The notes under the pieces were generated by a model that saw nothing but the letters and a program-made list of their open reading frames with translations, had not been told where the DNA came from and did not search any database. A stretch of 64,000 nt of DNA from an uncultured Candidatus Saccharibacteria bacterium (GTDB lineage: Bacteria > Patescibacteriota > Minisyncoccia > Phycocordibacterales > CAIZLB01), in assembly GCA_964450605.1 (NCBI GenBank), contig CAYVEK010000001.1, positions 8,430 through 72,429 on the forward strand, in the 5' to 3' direction. This document shows, in pieces, positions 3,104 through 59,049 of the stretch. How positions within the stretch are numbered: position 1 is the stretch's first letter; each line of letters begins with the position of its first letter. A program made the translations under genes and the position numbers.

Positions 3104-3496
3104 ATGAATCACGGAATATCACAAATCATAAATAACCTAAAAAACGCTAATAGTGCAGGAAAAAGTACTACTGTGTTTGGTTTCTCAAAATTTAGAAAAG
3201 CTATTCTAGATAAACTTTCTGCACTAGGTTTTGTTGGAGGTGTTAAAGTTATCGGAACTGGTCCTATCCAGCACATCGAAGTTGAACTTTCATACGATGA
3301 GGCAGGAAAACCAAAGATACAAGGAGTACAACAAGTTTCAAAGTTTTCTCGACGAGCATATGGTTCATACCGAGAAGCTCATCAAGTAAAAAATGGATAT
3401 GGTGCATTACTTGTAAGTACACCTAAAGGAGTGCTCTCTGACAGTGAGGTTCGAAAAGAAAAGGTCGGAGGAGAGTTTCTGTTTAAAATCTGGTAA
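3104..3496 (+). CDS. rpsH: 30S ribosomal protein S8
   Basis: 130 aa; S8 family similarity; operon position. Confidence 0.9.
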   Translation: MNHGISQIINNLKNANSAGKSTTVFGFSKFRKAILDKLSALGFVGGVKVIGTGPIQHIEVELSYDEAGKPKIQGVQQVSKFSRRAYGSYREAHQVKNGYGALLVSTPKGVLSDSEVRKEKVGGEFLFKIW

Positions 3497-15435: not shown

Positions 15436-15559
15436 TGTTTAGAGAATAGCACAGATTATACAAATTACGATACTTTTTTGAGTGTTTGGGAAGTGGAAAG
15501 TAAAGGTGTTTGGGTGGATTATTATAGTGAGGGTTATGTAGCCCTTTGCTCTATGCTTA

Positions 15560-15777
15560 GAATCCGCCAACTCTACTTCACTTTCAAGTGGTGGTGGACG
15601 TTTCGGACAAAAAGAGTGCCGGTAAAGCCTCTTCAATCTGAAGCTGTCCACTCCACCTCTCAAGATGAGGGATACGTTCAACTGGAGCTTTTTTAAGGCT
15701 TCTCGGCCCGCCGGAGAAAGGCTCAAAACCTGGTCAAACCCATGTTCAGAGCCTCCTCCGGAGGGTTTTTCTTTTTG
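15560..15777 (+). ncRNA. candidate structured non-coding RNA (identity unresolved) ending in a terminator-like hairpin
   Basis: Plus-strand segment lying between two minus-strand genes; long-range helix GGUGGUGGAC (15590-15599) / GUCCACUCCACC (15646-15657); small hairpins; hairpin CCGGAGAAAGGCUC...GAGCCUCCUCCGG then UUUUUCUUUUU (15711-15777); locally elevated GC. Confidence 0.3.
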
Positions 15778-15821
15778 CAGAGACTTGGTCCTTACAGGGC
15801 CAGTACACTAGGCTTTTTGTT

Positions 15822-15905
15822 TGGTGCCGGAGAAGAGACTTGAACTCTTACGGGTTGCCCCGCGCGATTTTGAGTCGCGTGCGTCTACCATTCCGCCACT
15901 CCGGC
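15822..15905 (-). tRNA. tRNA-Leu (anticodon CAA), class II with long variable arm, CCA encoded
   Basis: Reverse complement reads GCCGGAGTGGCGGAATGGTAGACGCACGCGACTCAAAATCGCGCGGGGCAACCCGTAAGAGTTCAAGTCTCTTCTCCGGCACCA; anticodon loop CUCAAAA; T-arm AAGAG-TTCAAGT-CTCTT; 7-bp acceptor stem. Confidence 0.85.
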
Positions 15906-15928
15906 TTACGTGCTATACTATAGCATAT

Positions 15929-16552
15929 ATGAAAAAACGTTCAATCCTCATCCTTGTACTCCTCATCCTTGTTGCCGGAGGTGTAACTTTCTATGTTAAA
16001 AATAAGACTACACATCATTTCATAGATAGTAGTATTACAAGTTCTGATGCTGCAATAAAAGCTTTTATCGAAATGATGATTCCTCATCATCAGGAGGCTG
16101 TTAGAACTTCAGAGCAGGTCTTAGCTGATAAAAGCATAGAAAATTTTGATCTACGAATTATCGCTGGACGTATAGTAGATGCTCAGACTTTTGAGATCAT
16201 ACAAATGATCAGTTGGTACGAAGATTGGTTTAAGATGGAGTACGATATAACAGGTATGTCGCACACTCATCACTATATGCCTATGATGAATACTGCAAGT
16301 ACAACAGGTGTGGTTCTTGAGAAAAACTATGTTAAAGGTATGATAAAACATCACAAAATGGCTATTGAGATGGCTCGAGAACTCATAGCGGCTTTTGATA
16401 AATATGAGGGAAGTAAAACTATCGGTGATGGAGATTTGGTTATACATGAATCTCATCCAAACATAGATACTATACGTCAGTTTGCACAGAAGATTATTGA
16501 TGTACAAAGCAAAGAAATTGAACAATTGTCCAGCTTGAAGTTTGACAGATAG
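15929..16552 (+). CDS. DUF305-family protein (four-helix-bundle, His-rich), N-terminal membrane anchor
   Basis: Repeated MIPHHQEA / MIKHHKMAIEMA motifs typical of DUF305; the track ORF 15821 is trimmed to ATG 15929 because its 5' part overlaps the tRNA. Confidence 0.6.
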   Translation: MKKRSILILVLLILVAGGVTFYVKNKTTHHFIDSSITSSDAAIKAFIEMMIPHHQEAVRTSEQVLADKSIENFDLRIIAGRIVDAQTFEIIQMISWYEDWFKMEYDITGMSHTHHYMPMMNTASTTGVVLEKNYVKGMIKHHKMAIEMARELIAAFDKYEGSKTIGDGDLVIHESHPNIDTIRQFAQKIIDVQSKEIEQLSSLKFDR

Positions 16553-22244: not shown

Positions 22245-22565
22245 GGTTTTTGTGTGTTTTGCTTAAATTATCTTTGTTTTTATAGGGATATTGTAGCAGG
22301 GGGATGGGGATGTGGCAAGGGGGTTAGATGATTATGTAAATGTTTTCAGGCCAGTGAATCATTACGATGATATTGACATATTGGATAATTATGATATGCA
22401 ATATATAATATAGAGTACATTGAAATTTTGCGAGATCACCGTAGCTACAAGCTGTCTAATTCCTAGACATTTTCTAGCTACGGTGACACAGGTTATCCTC
22501 TGGCAAATCACAATCATAGGACACGTTCAAAAGAACACGTCCACATCCAATAGAACAAACACGTC

Positions 22566-23168
22566 ATGGCTGACACGTCTGAAATGATTAGTCTCCCGCA
22601 GGCCCTCGAACTCGCGCATGCGCTTCTGCGCAACGGTTGGAAGCCAGCCGATGTGAAGTGGCTCAGCGTTGGCGAACGCCTCGCAGCGGTCCTTCCTCTG
22701 GTGCGAGGAACGGCTGAGATCAAGATCGTCAAACATCTGATTGATCTTGCAGTCGATCCCTTCGTTCCCGACAGTTGCAAAGGCGTCGAGCATCACGAAA
22801 AAGGCGCCACAGACTTCGAATGGGATCCGGCCAAGGTTCGCCTCCATATCTCCGAGAACCAGAAAGACAGCAAGAAGGTCGAAGGTAACGAGCTCCGCAA
22901 GGAGCTCGCTAAAGAAATGTCGTTCAATGCCAACCTTCTGGACTACCTCCTGAAGAATCCGCACCTCATTCCCGAGGAGTGGAAGAAAGATGAGGCGGGC
23001 AACACCCGCTACATCTACATCTACTTCTGGGGGACGATCTACCGCGGCTCCGATGACTACCAGTGTGTCCGCTACCTCTACTGGAATGGTACGGAGTGGG
23101 ACTGGGACGTCGATTGGCTCGACAGTCATTGGGAATCAAGCTACCCTGCTGCTTGTCTCGCAAAGTAG
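22566..23168 (+). CDS. hypothetical protein (200 aa) encoded on a GC-rich island; Trp/Tyr/Asp-rich C-terminus
   Basis: Clean 603-nt ORF with GC3-rich codon usage (CGC/CTC/GAG) unlike its flanks; about 55% GC against about 38%; own terminator downstream; no family recognised. Confidence 0.55.
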   Translation: MADTSEMISLPQALELAHALLRNGWKPADVKWLSVGERLAAVLPLVRGTAEIKIVKHLIDLAVDPFVPDSCKGVEHHEKGATDFEWDPAKVRLHISENQKDSKKVEGNELRKELAKEMSFNANLLDYLLKNPHLIPEEWKKDEAGNTRYIYIYFWGTIYRGSDDYQCVRYLYWNGTEWDWDVDWLDSHWESSYPAACLAK

Positions 23169-23258
23169 GCTAGACTTCAAGTCTTGTCCACTTCGGTCTG
23201 GCCCTTCGGCGATTTATCGCCAAACGCTCAGGAAGATACAGCGTTCGTAAACTTCCGG

Positions 23259-23286
23259 CCCTGTGCATTCGCGCAGGGTCTTTTCA
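23259..23286 (+). terminator. intrinsic terminator of the island-1 gene
   Basis: CCCTGTGC-ATTC-GCGCAGGG, 8-bp stem with one GU wobble, then TCTTTTC. Confidence 0.6.
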
Positions 23287-23425
23287 TATATAAATTATGA
23301 CAGGTATTTAAACTGTGTCTAAGAGTAGAATATTCGCCAATCTTGATAACGATTCAAAACCGCAGGCCTTAAAATTTTATTTCGGACTTTTAAAACATGG
23401 AAACATCAGAAAACTGCAAGATCTT

Positions 23426-49237: not shown

Positions 49238-50671
49238 CTAAAGCATCAAATCCGACAGACCGTTATAGAACTCACAAAACGAGTCCAAACGACCATCTTC
49301 TCCCATGACGGCTGTACAACATCTGTCTGTACGGTTACAGCTCCAGTTGTGGGCCGGACCACCAAATGTCATGAAGGGTTTTATCGATAGTCTGAACGCT
49401 TGAAGCGCATCCTCCATACTTACATGCATCGATCCGGCTTCGGTAGTCTCGCAACCGCAGAGGTGAACATCTTCTTGGTCGTAATTTATCCTGTCGGCCA
49501 AGAATGATGTTAGGGGCAAGCGCTCAGCAAGAGGCATGTCTCTGACCATACAGGTTACAGTCTTCCGATTTATCCAACCAATATGTTGACAGTTTGGATC
49601 TCCGCAAGGGAGCGGGAATATGCTGTTTTCATCCAGCACGCCATTCGCCTGATGAATCAGGTGGTTTATGACGTGTCCGGAGTCTACAAGTGCGGAGAAT
49701 TCTCCGTCAATTCTTCCTCCGCCGAAACGAGGCTGGTAGTTGACCCCTTTGACCACTGGGCATGACATGCCCAACAGGGCCACTTTCCACAAGTCGCAAA
49801 GGTTTTCGTGTACCACTGTCATGGCTAGTGTGGTGGACACACCTGTGGTCGGTAATTTTTCCAGGACTCTGAGTTCGTGGGTATGGAAGTTGCCCCCGGC
49901 AAGCACGCCTTGTGCCGGCGTTGATGGTCCGTTGAATTTGAGGTAGATGTGCACTTTGCGAAGATTCGCGATGGCTTTTAACTGTTCCGCAAAGTTGGCG
50001 TCCAACAACTTTGTTCCGTTGGTGTTGACCATCACCACGTGGATGTCTGGATTTTCCTGACACCATGTGAGTATGTCAAAGAATTGAGGATGAAGAGTTG
50101 GTTCACCTCCAGACAGCTGGAGGATTTCGATATAACCCCTCTTGTTTAGCAGTTTTTGAATCCTCGACTTTACTTCGTCTAAGGGAATAAAGGTGACATC
50201 GCCACCTCCTGCTTTGGGCGAAGCGGCCAAACATGTGGGACAACTCCAGTTGCAGGAACGCACTATCTCCAACAAGACAACGCAAGGGCTGAGTTTGTCG
50301 AAGTGGTCACCTTGTCCAACTTGCGGATCTTCCATAGTGGCATTTTTGCCAAGTGTAGATACTGCTGCATCGTCGCTGGACCTGCAGGCACAGGTTGCTC
50401 CGCAGGCTCCATCAGTAGGCTCTGCTTTGTAGAAAAAACGAGCGTCTGACATGACAATCGTTTGTGCGATGTGTTGGCATGCTGTGCAGGCAAATTGCAT
50501 ACGGATACGCTCTGGTTGTCTGTCTTCAAAAACCCCGCTGTACATGTAGCGAGAGGGTCCAAGAGGATCTTTTTCTTCAGATGCTGGGACTTTGACCCAG
50601 GTGGCAGATGTGCGCACCCTGCAGTTCGGACATACGGTAAAACCGCGAGAAATGATAGGGTAAGTTTGCAT
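49238..50671 (-). CDS. radical SAM enzyme (SPASM/twitch-like) with N-terminal Cys4 zinc-ribbon/rubredoxin-like module, on a GC-rich island
   Basis: CNWSCPTC (CxxxCxxC); SGGEPTL SAM-binding motif; VMVNTNGTKL; N-terminal CPNC...CTAC; C-terminal CGDPNC...C, CGCETT, CNRTDRCC clusters; about 52% GC. Confidence 0.8.
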   Translation of the reverse strand: MQTYPIISRGFTVCPNCRVRTSATWVKVPASEEKDPLGPSRYMYSGVFEDRQPERIRMQFACTACQHIAQTIVMSDARFFYKAEPTDGACGATCACRSSDDAAVSTLGKNATMEDPQVGQGDHFDKLSPCVVLLEIVRSCNWSCPTCLAASPKAGGGDVTFIPLDEVKSRIQKLLNKRGYIEILQLSGGEPTLHPQFFDILTWCQENPDIHVVMVNTNGTKLLDANFAEQLKAIANLRKVHIYLKFNGPSTPAQGVLAGGNFHTHELRVLEKLPTTGVSTTLAMTVVHENLCDLWKVALLGMSCPVVKGVNYQPRFGGGRIDGEFSALVDSGHVINHLIHQANGVLDENSIFPLPCGDPNCQHIGWINRKTVTCMVRDMPLAERLPLTSFLADRINYDQEDVHLCGCETTEAGSMHVSMEDALQAFRLSIKPFMTFGGPAHNWSCNRTDRCCTAVMGEDGRLDSFCEFYNGLSDLML

Positions 50672-57969: not shown

Positions 57970-59049
57970 ATGTGGTCTCCAATTCAACTTATGAACTCAA
58001 CATCAGCAGCGGTTTTCCGTCTTGTTGTTTTGGTCTTGATGATCCTGTTCACAGCAGGGGCCTCAAAGGCTGAGACCTACAAAGCGGTTGTTACCGATTT
58101 TAGCTTGAGTTTTAATCCGCCGGATCCTCTAGATCCATTCAAGAACTCAAGTTCTAACCTGCACATGACGGACATGTCGCAGGTTTCGGCCGAAACGACG
58201 GTGTACTTCTCCGTTCGTTTTCGGTTTCTCGGGGATACTTCGGGCCAGTGGCTCTCTGTGAGTCAGCCGAACTTTCCCGGCAGTAACTCCTTCACGATGA
58301 TGGGTCAGAAGGAGCAGGGTGGTGGTGTACGCTACCCAAACGGTCTCGGAGGTGCTCAAAACATCTCTATTGCGGGTTCGGTCTACACTGGCTACGACTA
58401 TCCGAAGAATCCAAATCCTACAACAGGTGGGGCGTGGATCTACGGCAAAGACGTCGCGGGGAATATCGTCACCCCAACCGGGAGTCCGATCAAGGATCCT
58501 GGTGCCGTGCCGTTCAATGGCGGGGCCTATATGGTCAACTCTAACCCCAATCTTCGGGTATACGAGTTTTCCGTTATCGGAGCCCGTCGGAAGTTCGGCT
58601 CGTCGTTTGTGTCAGGGGTTAATAACCTCAGGGCTCAAGCCGCCCTGACCGGCGCTAAGTTCAACCTCTTTGTTGACGTGACAAGCAGTATTGGGGTCGA
58701 CTCGGTACTAGGCCCGACAGAAGGGTGCAAGTGCTATCTTCAGTATCCTGAGTGGTTGCGCTTCCCAACGATCTATGTCGGCGATCAGTTTGGTCCGGTC
58801 AAACTCGACCTTCAAATACTGTCGGTTGGAAATTTCCTGATCAAAAATGGTCGCTTGTCGACCATGATCCTGCAAAGGTCGGGAGATCTTCGTAACTGGT
58901 ACACAGTACCAGCGGTCGATTACTCGATCTCAAATCTGGTCAACGGCGACACCGCCCTGACCATGATCGGATTAGGAAGTCAAACCACTCACCTGTCCAT
59001 CCCTCCGCAGGACGGGCCAAACTGCTTCTACCGCCTCGCGTACCCATAA
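57970..59049 (+). CDS. hypothetical secreted protein (359 aa) on a GC-rich island
   Basis: GC3-rich codon usage; signal peptide (AAVFRLVVLVLMILFTAGASKA); Gly/Asn/Pro-rich; no family recognised. Confidence 0.55.
   Translation: MWSPIQLMNSTSAAVFRLVVLVLMILFTAGASKAETYKAVVTDFSLSFNPPDPLDPFKNSSSNLHMTDMSQVSAETTVYFSVRFRFLGDTSGQWLSVSQPNFPGSNSFTMMGQKEQGGGVRYPNGLGGAQNISIAGSVYTGYDYPKNPNPTTGGAWIYGKDVAGNIVTPTGSPIKDPGAVPFNGGAYMVNSNPNLRVYEFSVIGARRKFGSSFVSGVNNLRAQAALTGAKFNLFVDVTSSIGVDSVLGPTEGCKCYLQYPEWLRFPTIYVGDQFGPVKLDLQILSVGNFLIKNGRLSTMILQRSGDLRNWYTVPAVDYSISNLVNGDTALTMIGLGSQTTHLSIPPQDGPNCFYRLAYP

What the first reader, a model, noticed from the sequence alone, without database searches (positions are those of the whole stretch)
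22490..23290. GC-rich island 1: a single 200-aa orphan protein with its own structured 3' region, between infC and a phospholipase-D-like gene
GC is about 55-58% over about 800 bp against about 36-38% in the flanks. Codon usage differs (CGC/CTC/GAG against the host's CGA/AGA and T-ending codons). Many overlapping spurious ORFs on both strands are typical of high-GC DNA. The 3' end carries several GC hairpins (AGACTTCAAGTCT palindrome, GCC-CUUC-GGC, GGCGAUUUAUCGCC, AACGCU...AGCGUU) and an 8-bp-stem terminator. The protein has a Trp/Tyr/Asp-rich C-terminus (YIYIYFWG...WNGTEWDWDVDWLDSHW) and no recognisable family. Inference: recent horizontal acquisition from a high-GC donor, perhaps the host of an episymbiont, or a mobile cassette.
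Basis: seen in the sequence. Interest (0 to 1): 0.6.

Follow-up and report, generated by a model that had tools for sequence, protein, structure and literature searches.

The report
Solitary DGR variable-protein gene module
The GC-rich island is a lone copy of the hypervariable target gene of a diversity-generating retroelement that is common in Patescibacteria, so it is neither an orphan gene nor a fresh import from a high-GC donor; its high GC is a trait of the whole gene family.

Summary
The island is real: GC is 0.50-0.58 over 22500-23290 against 0.33-0.41 in the flanks, with C/G-ending codons and a structured 3' end plus terminator. The 200-aa protein is not an orphan. It has at least 946 homologs, all from Patescibacteria (CPR).

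In about half of 80 related loci the gene is followed by a 123-bp template repeat, a bAvd gene and a reverse transcriptase. Of 433 substitutions between gene end and repeat, 411 lie at template adenines, which is the hallmark of a diversity-generating retroelement (DGR). The window holds only the target module (promoter, structured leader, ORF with variable region, 3' hairpins, terminator). There is no template repeat, Avd or RT in 64 kb.

The gene is GC-richer than its flanks in 78 of 80 species. Avd and RT in the same cassettes are not. The GC island is therefore a maintained family trait, not a mark of recent transfer from a high-GC donor. The cause of the gene-wide GC3 excess is unknown.

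Two further conserved elements emerged, neither in Rfam: a covarying 5' leader RNA, and a three-tier hairpin after the variable region, which is remodelled in the window.

Verdict: a new member of a known kind, of moderate interest.

The parts
22373..22402 (+). Promoter of the module. The -35 box is TTGACA (22373-22378). After 18 nt comes TGCAAT (22397-22402), which aligns with the TATAAT of relatives.
   Evidence: Homology with L001, L002, L003 and L108 begins exactly at the invariant TTGACA, and the upstream DNA is unrelated. The consensus scan also proposes TGGATA-16-TATAAT at 22382-22409. The transcription start was not determined.
22427..22549 (+). Conserved structured 5' leader RNA of the target gene. 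Hairpin 1 is at 22436-22486, followed by a UCCUCUGGCAAA motif, then hairpin 2 at 22519-22542 (GGACACGUUC-AAAA-GAACACGUCC).
   Evidence: The 161-nt region 22415-22575, which contains it, folds at -47.8 kcal/mol, z = -5.9. Covariance model R1 scores it 125.6 bits and finds the element on the + strand directly upstream of the target gene in 62 distinct loci. Nearly all 20 pairs of hairpin 1 covary, and abundant G-U pairs indicate sense-strand RNA. There is no Rfam match.
22566..23168 (+). ORF of 200 aa, a homolog of the variable (target) protein of the Patescibacteria DGR clade. It has three N-terminal helices (residues 10-46) followed by a mixed alpha/beta domain that carries the variable region.
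   Evidence: At least 946 homologs. All family-invariant residues are present. AlphaFold2 pLDDT is 92.6 for the full protein and 94.2 for residues 51-200. Homologs lie next to template repeat (TR), bAvd and RT.
23041..23163 (+). Variable-region (VR) equivalent: the last ~41 codons, YRGSDDYQCVRYLYWNGTEWDWDVDWLDSHWESSYPAACLA. Its 3' end, CCCTGCTGCTTGTCTCGCA, is identical to the VR/TR ends of L002 and L003.
   Evidence: It aligns over 122-124 nt with the TRs of L108, L002, L003, L004 and L109. Mismatches fall at 41-48% of TR adenines against 13-27% of other bases. In 24 complete cassettes, 411 of 433 VR/TR substitutions are at TR adenines. No second copy exists in the window.
23169..23256 (+). 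Structured 3' untranslated region. It has a 9-bp stem GGCUAGACU/GGUCUGGCC directly after the stop codon, the hairpin GGCGA-UUUA-UCGCC, and the elements AACGCU..AGCGUU and GGAAG..CUUCC. It is a remodelled version of the family's post-VR hairpin.
   Evidence: Fold. It aligns with the 3' regions of L001 and L003. The family-wide three-tier hairpin (covariation; model R2 finds it just after the stop codon in about 70 other loci) is not detected here. Relative to L003, a 22-nt piece that holds its 3' halves is missing, as it is in the solo locus L001.
23257..23285 (+). Intrinsic terminator, GGCCCTGTGC-ATTC-GCGCAGGGTC followed by TTTTC. This is the right end of the conserved module.
   Evidence: Terminator scan. 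It is conserved in L001, L003, L004 and L005. In complete cassettes about 200 nt of conserved sequence and then the TR follow; in the window and L001, homology stops here.

Best explanation
The island is the target module of a diversity-generating retroelement (DGR) of the Patescibacteria-specific clade, present here on its own.

It is one transcription unit on the + strand:
- a promoter (22373-22402);
- a ~125-nt structured leader RNA;
- a 200-aa ligand-binding-type protein whose last ~41 codons are the variable region (VR);
- a structured 3' region and a terminator.

Shown for the family: in complete cassettes a 123-bp template repeat (TR) lies 330-450 bp downstream, followed by bAvd and a reverse transcriptase. 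TR RNA is copied with errors at adenines, and the cDNA overwrites the VR. This rewrites AAY codons and diversifies the protein's binding surface.

Shown for the window: the VR carries that signature, but TR, Avd and RT are absent from all 64 kb, and the family's post-VR hairpin is remodelled.

Inferred: the gene is expressed as an ordinary, intact binding protein. About 55%: it is no longer being diversified. About 35%: it is a remote target of a DGR elsewhere in the genome.

The GC-richness is a family trait with two layers:
- Near-absence of third-position A in VR and TR. This follows from DGR logic, because adenines are tolerated only where variation is wanted.
- A gene-wide excess of GC at third positions that declines towards the 5' end. 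Its cause is unknown. It is maintained in every host and is not a relic of a high-GC donor.
For: - Family size and taxonomy: at least 946 homologs, those named being from Patescibacteria; 381 species genomes.
- Cassette anatomy in L018 and L025: gene, spacer, TR with Asn codons where the gene varies, bAvd (PF22296), RT (PF00078, YIRYADD motif).
- About half of the 80 loci carry a TR and/or Avd/RT beside the gene; 39 have a clear TR. The closest homolog, P0002 (67%), is followed by bAvd.
- Adenine-specific VR/TR mismatches: 411 of 433.
- The window VR against heterologous TRs mismatches preferentially at TR adenines, and its 3' end is identical to theirs.
- No TR, RT or Avd in the window.
- Module limits and conserved leader, 3' region and terminator.
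- The gene's GC exceeds its flanks' in 78 of 80 loci, mean +0.107, and in 19 of 21 further metagenome and viral loci.
- Within 24 cassettes: target +0.104, TR +0.093, spacer -0.005, Avd -0.041, RT -0.043 relative to flanks.
- Regression on flank GC: RT slope 0.87, target slope 0.42.
- Third-position A is 0.02-0.06 in the VR and 0.11-0.17 upstream. GC3 runs from 0.83 down to 0.61.
- Literature. Roux 2021 (PMC8144416): DGR clade 2 is restricted to CPR, and its targets lack recognisable domains. Guo 2011 (PMC3240598): a hairpin downstream of the VR is needed for efficient retrohoming.
Against: - No TR or RT was found for this particular gene, so DGR action on it is inferred from homology and from the VR mismatch pattern, not shown.
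- For 'no longer diversified': solo and TR-linked loci do not differ in VR third-position composition (A3 0.033 against 0.035), and most solos keep the canonical 3' hairpin. Solos in general may therefore still be served in trans.
- The gene-wide GC3 excess has no demonstrated cause.
Confidence: 0.85

Rival explanations
1. The gene is an active remote target. A DGR (TR, Avd, RT) elsewhere in the same genome still rewrites the variable region at 23041-23163 in trans.
For: - 25 of 64 loci with enough flanking DNA are solos. Their VR third-position composition cannot be told apart from that of TR-linked copies.
- The window VR composition resembles that of L108, which is a complete cassette.
- The 3' end of the VR is identical to the TR/VR ends of relatives, and a 9-bp hairpin still follows the stop codon.
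- DGRs can act in trans on non-adjacent targets (Wu 2018, PMC5758913).
Against: [quoted passage not shown]
- There is no TR or RT in 64 kb.
- The family's three-tier post-VR hairpin is not detected, and a 22-nt piece of it is missing.
- The VR is identical in the two assemblies on record (NCBI, Logan), and neither contig breaks at it. By contrast, many contigs with complete cassettes end in Avd or RT.
Confidence: 0.35
2. One reading: a recent horizontal import from a high-GC donor outside the lineage (for example the episymbiont's host) that has not yet ameliorated.
For: Composition and tetranucleotide signature deviate strongly. Two other GC-rich single-gene islands in the window show that compositionally foreign genes exist in this genome. 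One of them is a near-ORFan.
Against: - Homologs are confined to Patescibacteria.
- The same GC excess is seen in 78 of 80 species, including relatives at 61-69% identity in equally AT-rich hosts.
- RT and Avd of the same cassettes are host-like.
- The module carries family-specific regulatory RNA elements.
Confidence: 0.03
3. The GC-rich stretch is mainly a structured non-coding RNA or an antisense gene, and the 200-aa ORF is spurious.
For: A 200-aa antisense ORF spans the same DNA. Both untranslated ends are strongly structured.
Against: - The sense protein is conserved with 24 invariant residues among 28 sequences and a typical substitution pattern.
- It folds with pLDDT 92.6.
- The antisense ORF is the codon-aligned frame that stays open whenever TTA, CTA and TCA are avoided.
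- There is no Rfam match.
Confidence: 0.02
4. Assembly chimera: foreign reads were joined into the contig.
For: The composition changes abruptly at both edges.
Against: A separate Logan assembly of run SRR11567528 gives the same order, infC - gene - PLD - tyrS. The edges coincide with a promoter and a terminator that are conserved in relatives.
Confidence: 0.01

Closest known systems
Variable (target) proteins of the Patescibacteria/CPR-restricted DGR clade ('clade 2' of Roux et al. 2021, PMC8144416; CPR DGRs of Paul et al. 2017 and Wu et al. 2018, PMC5758913)
   Same: The taxonomic range is the same. The protein is small, with no recognisable domain or transmembrane segment. The variable region is C-terminal. 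Homologs lie beside a TR, bAvd and an RT, with adenine-only VR/TR differences.
   Different: This copy stands alone, with no TR, Avd or RT within 64 kb, and its post-VR hairpin is remodelled. In the papers read here I found no report of the family-wide GC excess confined to target gene and TR, and the conserved leader RNA matches no Rfam family.
Mtd of Bordetella phage BPP-1 and its target-site elements (IMH and the downstream hairpin/cruciform; Guo et al. 2011, PMC3240598)
   Same: The VR is C-terminal and ends in a constant GC-rich segment shared with the TR. A structure-conserved hairpin starts a few nt after the stop codon in the family.
   Different: There is no sequence similarity and no significant fold similarity to solved DGR variable proteins. 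The family hairpin has three tiers (4+4+6 bp with U-rich internal loops), not a single 8-bp GC stem with a GRNA loop. A conserved 5' leader is present, whereas in BPP-1 sequences upstream of the VR are dispensable for homing.
Non-adjacent or remote DGR targets (Treponema denticola, Trichodesmium; Wu 2018, PMC5758913; Paul and Eren 2022, PMC8867640)
   Same: A VR-bearing gene lies far from any RT.
   Different: Those cases are defined by a matching TR in the same genome. Here none can be shown, because only 64 kb of the genome is available.
Horizontally acquired genomic islets (compositional islands)
   Same: Single gene, sharp compositional edges, different genomic context in different genomes.
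   Different: The composition does not reflect a donor: it recurs in every host. Neighbouring genes of the same cassette are host-like. No integrase, tRNA site or direct repeats are present.

Membership tests
DGR variable (target) gene | Homologous to genes that lie beside a template repeat, an accessory Avd and a DGR-type reverse transcriptase | tested here: met
   About half of the 80 related loci have a TR and/or Avd/RT beside the gene; 39 have a clear TR. Avd is PF22296 and RT is PF00078. The closest homolog, P0002, is followed by bAvd.
DGR variable (target) gene | The VR differs from its TR only, or almost only, at TR adenines | tested here: inconclusive
   Met for the family: 411 of 433 substitutions in 24 cassettes. 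For the window gene no cognate TR is available. Against heterologous TRs, mismatches hit 41-48% of adenines against 13-27% of other bases.
DGR variable (target) gene | TR and RT present in the same genome | tested here: not met
   None in the 64-kb window by blastn, tblastn and pattern search. The rest of the genome could not be searched. The RT family search was uninformative.
DGR variable (target) gene | Constant segment at the 3' end of the VR, shared with the TR (IMH-like) | tested here: met
   CCCTGCTGCTTGTCTCGCA at 23145-23163 is identical to the TR and VR ends of L002 and L003, and differs at one base from the TR of L108.
DGR variable (target) gene | Hairpin/cruciform just downstream of the VR | tested here: inconclusive
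   The family-type three-tier hairpin is supported by covariation and found just after the stop codon in about 70 other loci, but not in the window. The window has a different 9-bp stem directly after the stop codon and lacks 22 nt that L003 has.
DGR variable (target) gene | C-type-lectin fold carrying the variable residues | tested here: inconclusive
DGR variable (target) gene | Hypervariability of the VR within a population | not testable with these tools
   No reads are available. The two assemblies on record give an identical protein.
Recent horizontal import from a high-GC donor | Homologs in high-GC taxa outside the recipient lineage, and absent or host-like in relatives | tested here: not met
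   Homologs are from Patescibacteria lineages. The GC excess is present in 78 of 80 species.
Recent horizontal import from a high-GC donor | The whole transferred unit shares the foreign composition | tested here: not met
   In complete cassettes only the target gene and TR are GC-rich. Spacer, Avd and RT are at or below host GC.
Known structured RNA family (Rfam 15) | Match at the gathering score | tested here: not met
   There is no match in the island or in canonical relatives.

The most novel reading that the evidence does not exclude
Target genes of this DGR clade may live under a compositional regime linked to the retroelement. Synonymous sites across the whole gene, not only the variable region, are held GC-rich and A-poor in every host, with a gradient rising towards the variable region. 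Avd and RT, 1 kb away, follow the host. This would point to an unrecognised by-product or requirement of mutagenic retrohoming, such as biased repair or conversion spreading 5' from the homing site, or selection on the target transcript.

In addition, the covarying ~125-nt leader is absent from Rfam. It contains 'GAACACGU' copies that could pair alternatively with the start-codon region. It may be a new cis-regulatory RNA that controls expression of DGR variable proteins.
Probability: 0.3. Interest if true: 0.6.

Novelty: new member of a known kind. Interest (0 to 1): 0.4.

Why it matters
- It turns an apparent orphan 'foreign' gene into an identifiable part of a known hypermutation system. 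Compositional islands in small AT-rich genomes are therefore not always transfer scars.
- It adds three features of Patescibacteria DGRs that can be tested: the target gene and template repeat, but not the enzyme genes, are kept GC-rich in all hosts; a conserved leader RNA precedes the target gene; and about 40% of copies with enough flanking DNA stand alone.
- If the lone copies are served in trans, DGR surveys that require an adjacent RT undercount targets in these bacteria. If they are not, they show that diversified binders can be fixed and kept as ordinary genes.

Tried and rejected
- IS200/IS605-like single-gene element with end hairpins: rejected. There is no Y1 transposase or other Pfam match, the gene is mostly single copy per genome, and there are no terminal repeats or target duplications.
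- Antisense 200-aa ORF as the real gene: rejected. It is the codon-aligned frame, kept open by the lack of A-ending TTA/CTA/TCA codons.
- Known RNA family: none.
- Defence-system protein: no PADLOC hit. Phage protein: no PHROG hit, and only 5 partial relatives in 2.9 million viral contigs.
- Conserved synteny with infC and PLD: not found. infC lies 3-5 kb away in only 3 of 80 loci, with other genes in between.
- Near-identical population variants in JGI metagenomes, to look for VR variation: none closer than 58%.
- An RT on the same 295,575-bp contig, sought through the protein database: the RT family is too large and star-like (at least 8000 hits, all at 62-68% identity), so the test was uninformative.
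- Co-divergence of target and RT: no rank correlation (Spearman -0.07), probably because of saturation, so it is not interpretable.
- Decay of solo copies: not seen. GC excess is 0.099 against 0.115, and VR A3 is 0.033 against 0.035.
- Paul et al. 2017 could not be read.

Full report
**Observation**

The island is real. In 200-nt windows GC is 0.505-0.58 from 22500 to 23299, against 0.33-0.41 on either side. The 800-bp window 22501-23300 is the 5th most deviant of 633 in tetranucleotide use. The three GC-rich islands of the window supply all 15 top places.

Codon use is as described. Arg is CGC 7 of 8 in the gene against CGA 71 of 108 in host genes. Leu is CTC 13 of 22 and Tyr is TAC 9 of 9. 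Third-position A is 0.11 against 0.33-0.39 in infC, PLD, tyrS and gyrB.

Overlapping ORFs on both strands exist. The 200-aa antisense ORF lies in the codon-aligned frame, which stays open when TTA, CTA and TCA are avoided. The 3' region folds strongly (-50 kcal/mol, z = -5.6) and ends in a 10-pair terminator at 23257-23280 followed by TTTTC.

A separate Logan assembly of run SRR11567528 shows the same order, infC - gene - PLD - tyrS. An assembly artefact is therefore unlikely.

**The protein is not an orphan**

It has no Pfam, NCBIfam, PHROG or PADLOC match. It does have at least 946 homologs at 47-67% identity, each about 190-200 aa long. Those that carry names come from Parcubacteria, Vogelbacteria, Andersenbacteria, Minisyncoccia and other Patescibacteria. 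A scan of one genome per species found relatives in 381 species.

Alignments show strong motifs: NANLLDYLLKNPHLIPEEWK and FFWGTIYR..G.L.VR.L.W. They are followed by a C-terminus in which W, L and PAA are fixed and the residues between them vary freely.

**What the family is**

In L018 and L025 the gene is followed, about 330 bp downstream, by a 123-bp copy of its last ~40 codons. This copy has Asn codons where the gene varies. In L018 the gene reads SLCVRCLYWLDSQWFWGYRWLGYGWNSNYPAALLAS and the copy reads NLYVRYLYWNDSQWNWSNNWLDNDWNSNNPAALLAT. Next come a bAvd gene (PF22296) on the opposite strand and a 331-aa reverse transcriptase (PF00078, YIRYADD motif).

About half of the 80 loci show a template repeat and/or Avd/RT beside the gene; 39 have a clear template repeat. 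In 24 complete cassettes, 411 of 433 substitutions between gene end and repeat lie at adenines of the repeat. That is the defining signature of a diversity-generating retroelement (DGR). The repeat is the template repeat (TR), the gene end is the variable region (VR), and the gene encodes the variable protein.

This fits the literature:
- DGR 'clade 2' is restricted to Patescibacteria, and its targets lack recognisable domains (Roux 2021, PMC8144416).
- CPR DGRs tend to have one adjacent target (Wu 2018, PMC5758913).

**What is in the window**

Only the target module is present. No TR-like copy, RT or Avd is found anywhere in the 64 kb.

Homology with the closest relatives (L001, L002, L003, L108) starts exactly at a -35 TTGACA at 22373-22378. 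It runs through a leader, the ORF and the 3' region, and stops just after the terminator. In complete cassettes, about 200 nt of further conserved sequence and then the TR follow at that point.

The window VR (23041-23163) aligns with the TRs of relatives over 122-124 nt. It mismatches at 41-48% of their adenines but only 13-27% of other bases. Its last 19 nt are identical to the TR/VR ends of L002 and L003. The ORF is intact and keeps every family-invariant residue.

Context is not conserved among relatives. In L048 a solo copy sits between two genes whose homologs are adjacent in the window. In L109 a copy follows rplK. No target-site duplication or terminal repeat flanks the module.

**The GC-richness**

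The gene is GC-richer than its flanks in 78 of 80 species (mean +0.107, up to +0.26; GC3 mostly 0.58-0.89), with host GC ranging from 0.33 to 0.61. The same holds in 19 of 21 further loci.

Within 24 complete cassettes only the target gene (+0.104) and the TR (+0.093) are enriched. The spacer (-0.005), Avd (-0.041) and RT (-0.043) are not. RT GC follows host GC (slope 0.87, r = 0.88). Target GC hardly does (slope 0.42, intercept 0.37).

The closest relatives, at 61-69% identity, also live in 0.34-0.41 GC hosts with gene GC of 0.53-0.565. The excess has therefore persisted far beyond any amelioration time.

Two layers can be separated:
- In the VR, third-position A is almost absent (0.02-0.06) and C dominates (0.52-0.56). 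This is expected if adenines are tolerated in the TR only where variation is wanted.
- Upstream, both A3 and T3 are roughly halved relative to the RT gene. GC3 declines from 0.83 in the VR to 0.61 at the 5' end.

The cause of the second layer is unknown. Candidates are biased repair or conversion spreading from the homing site, selection on the transcript, or frequent exchange of target modules. None was tested decisively. Target and RT divergence are uncorrelated, but both are near saturation.

**Conserved RNA elements**

The 5' leader (22427-22549) is detected by a covariance model built from nine sequences. It is found on the + strand immediately upstream of the target gene in 62 distinct loci, solos and paralog copies included. 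Hairpin 1 (22436-22486) covaries at nearly every one of its 20 pairs. Frequent G-U pairs mark it as a sense-strand RNA structure.

The family layout of the leader is: hairpin 1, then a CUGGCA motif, then hairpin 2 (GCAACACGUUC-NNNN-GAACACGUUGC), then a Shine-Dalgarno sequence (SD) and the AUG. A further GAACACGU copy lies just before the AUG. It could compete for the 5' arm of hairpin 2; this was not tested. The window's subclade lacks the SD, complete cassettes included. No Rfam family matches.

At the 3' side the family has a three-tier hairpin (4+4+6 pairs with U-rich internal loops) that starts 3-10 nt after the stop codon. It is supported by covariation (50 double changes against 17.9 in shuffles, 0 of 500 shuffles as high). 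Model R2 finds it just after the stop codon, on the + strand, in about 70 loci. It corresponds in position to the hairpin/cruciform that BPP-1 needs for efficient retrohoming (Guo 2011, PMC3240598).

The window, the solo L001 and L003 are not detected by this model. Compared with L003, the window and L001 lack a 22-nt piece that holds the 3' halves of the tiers. The window has a 5-nt insertion that creates a different 9-bp stem.

**Active or relic?**

For a relic:
- There is no TR or RT in 64 kb.
- The target hairpin is remodelled, and the same change is seen in another solo.
- CPR DGRs usually have adjacent targets.
- The VR is identical in the two assemblies on record (NCBI, Logan) and neither contig breaks at it, whereas many contigs with complete cassettes end in Avd or RT.

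For a remote target:
- 25 of 64 adequately flanked loci are solos.
- Solos do not differ from TR-linked copies in GC excess (0.099 against 0.115) or in VR third-position A (0.033 against 0.035).
- Most solos keep the canonical hairpin.
- The window VR resembles that of the complete cassette L108 in composition.

I put about 55% on 'no longer diversified' and 35% on 'remote target'. The rest of the genome could not be searched, and an RT search through the protein database was uninformative.

**Protein**

AlphaFold2 gives confident models: pLDDT 92.6 for the whole protein and 94.2 for residues 51-200. Three N-terminal helices are followed by a mixed alpha/beta domain that ends in the VR strands.

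The best Foldseek matches in the PDB are C-type lectin domains (BDCA2, snaclecs, Bd2740 C-terminal domain), but they are not significant (E = 1.4-3, TM 0.36-0.46). A sequence profile finds no solved relative. The C-type-lectin fold expected of DGR variable regions is therefore plausible but unproven here. There is no signal peptide or transmembrane segment in the sequence (read directly from it), and the ligand is unknown.

**Verdict**

The finding is a real feature that was mislabelled. It is a solitary target module of a known kind of system, a Patescibacteria DGR, so it is a new member of a known kind.

The points beyond the known are observations that need follow-up:
- the GC excess confined to target gene and TR in all hosts;
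- the conserved leader RNA;
- the three-tier post-VR hairpin;
- the high share of solo copies.

Noticed in passing
window 49238-50671 (-): Second GC-rich single-gene island (GC 0.47-0.54). It is a 477-aa Cys-rich radical SAM protein (PF04055) with weak viperin-like (pVip) PADLOC matches. Its third-position composition is also shifted towards C and G.
   Followed up: partly
window 57970-59049 (+): Third GC-rich island (GC up to 0.585). It is a 359-aa protein with a hydrophobic N-terminus, no Pfam or PADLOC match, and only one homolog (85% identity, on a 1.5-kb contig) among 5.8 billion proteins. It is a true near-ORFan, unlike island 1.
   Followed up: partly
window 22427-22549; relatives such as L027:1553-1674 and L034:5867-5987: Covarying ~125-nt leader RNA, found upstream of the target gene in 62 distinct loci and absent from Rfam 15. 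It is a candidate new cis-regulatory RNA motif for DGR variable-protein genes.
   Followed up: yes
window 22519-22585: There are four copies of ACACGT: two in the arms of hairpin 2, one directly before the ATG and one just after it. In the wider family, GAACACGU recurs before the AUG, which allows alternative pairing with the 5' arm of hairpin 2. The window subclade has no Shine-Dalgarno sequence before the start codon.
   Followed up: partly
window 23010-23021: Tandem duplication of TACATC gives RYIYIYFWG where the family has RYIFFWG. The model's confidence dips locally there (pLDDT 81).
   Followed up: no
L003, L010, L043, L044, L108, L109, L110 (contig ends): Many metagenome contigs with complete cassettes stop inside or just after Avd or RT. 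This suggests that repeats or hypervariability break assemblies at these DGRs.
   Followed up: no
L048:5249-7785: A solo target gene (GC 0.414 against 0.347 in flanks) lies between homologs of window ORFs 2307-2855 and 3104-3496, which are adjacent in the window. This is a clean presence/absence difference.
   Followed up: partly
L015:6001-9937, L043:5300-6558, L051:6001-7481: Some genomes carry two or three tandem or nearby paralogs of the target gene around one RT. Each paralog has its own leader element.
   Followed up: no
L004/L005/L003/L002, about 120-330 nt after the target stop codon: About 200 nt of conserved sequence (CGGTAGTAGGTGAATATGG...GGTGGTG..ATAGA) precedes the TR. It is presumably the 5' part of the TR-containing DGR RNA. 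It has no Rfam match and is absent from the window.
   Followed up: no
L111-L115 (IMG/VR contigs): Only five viral contigs encode relatives, and these match only residues ~56-200. The N-terminal helical domain is missing.
   Followed up: no
L034:976-1105 (+): A LOOT RNA (RF03000, 71 bits) lies 5 kb upstream of the DGR in this locus. It is probably unrelated.
   Followed up: no
window 15825-15905 (-): A tRNA gene accounts for the small GC bump at 15501-16000.
   Followed up: no
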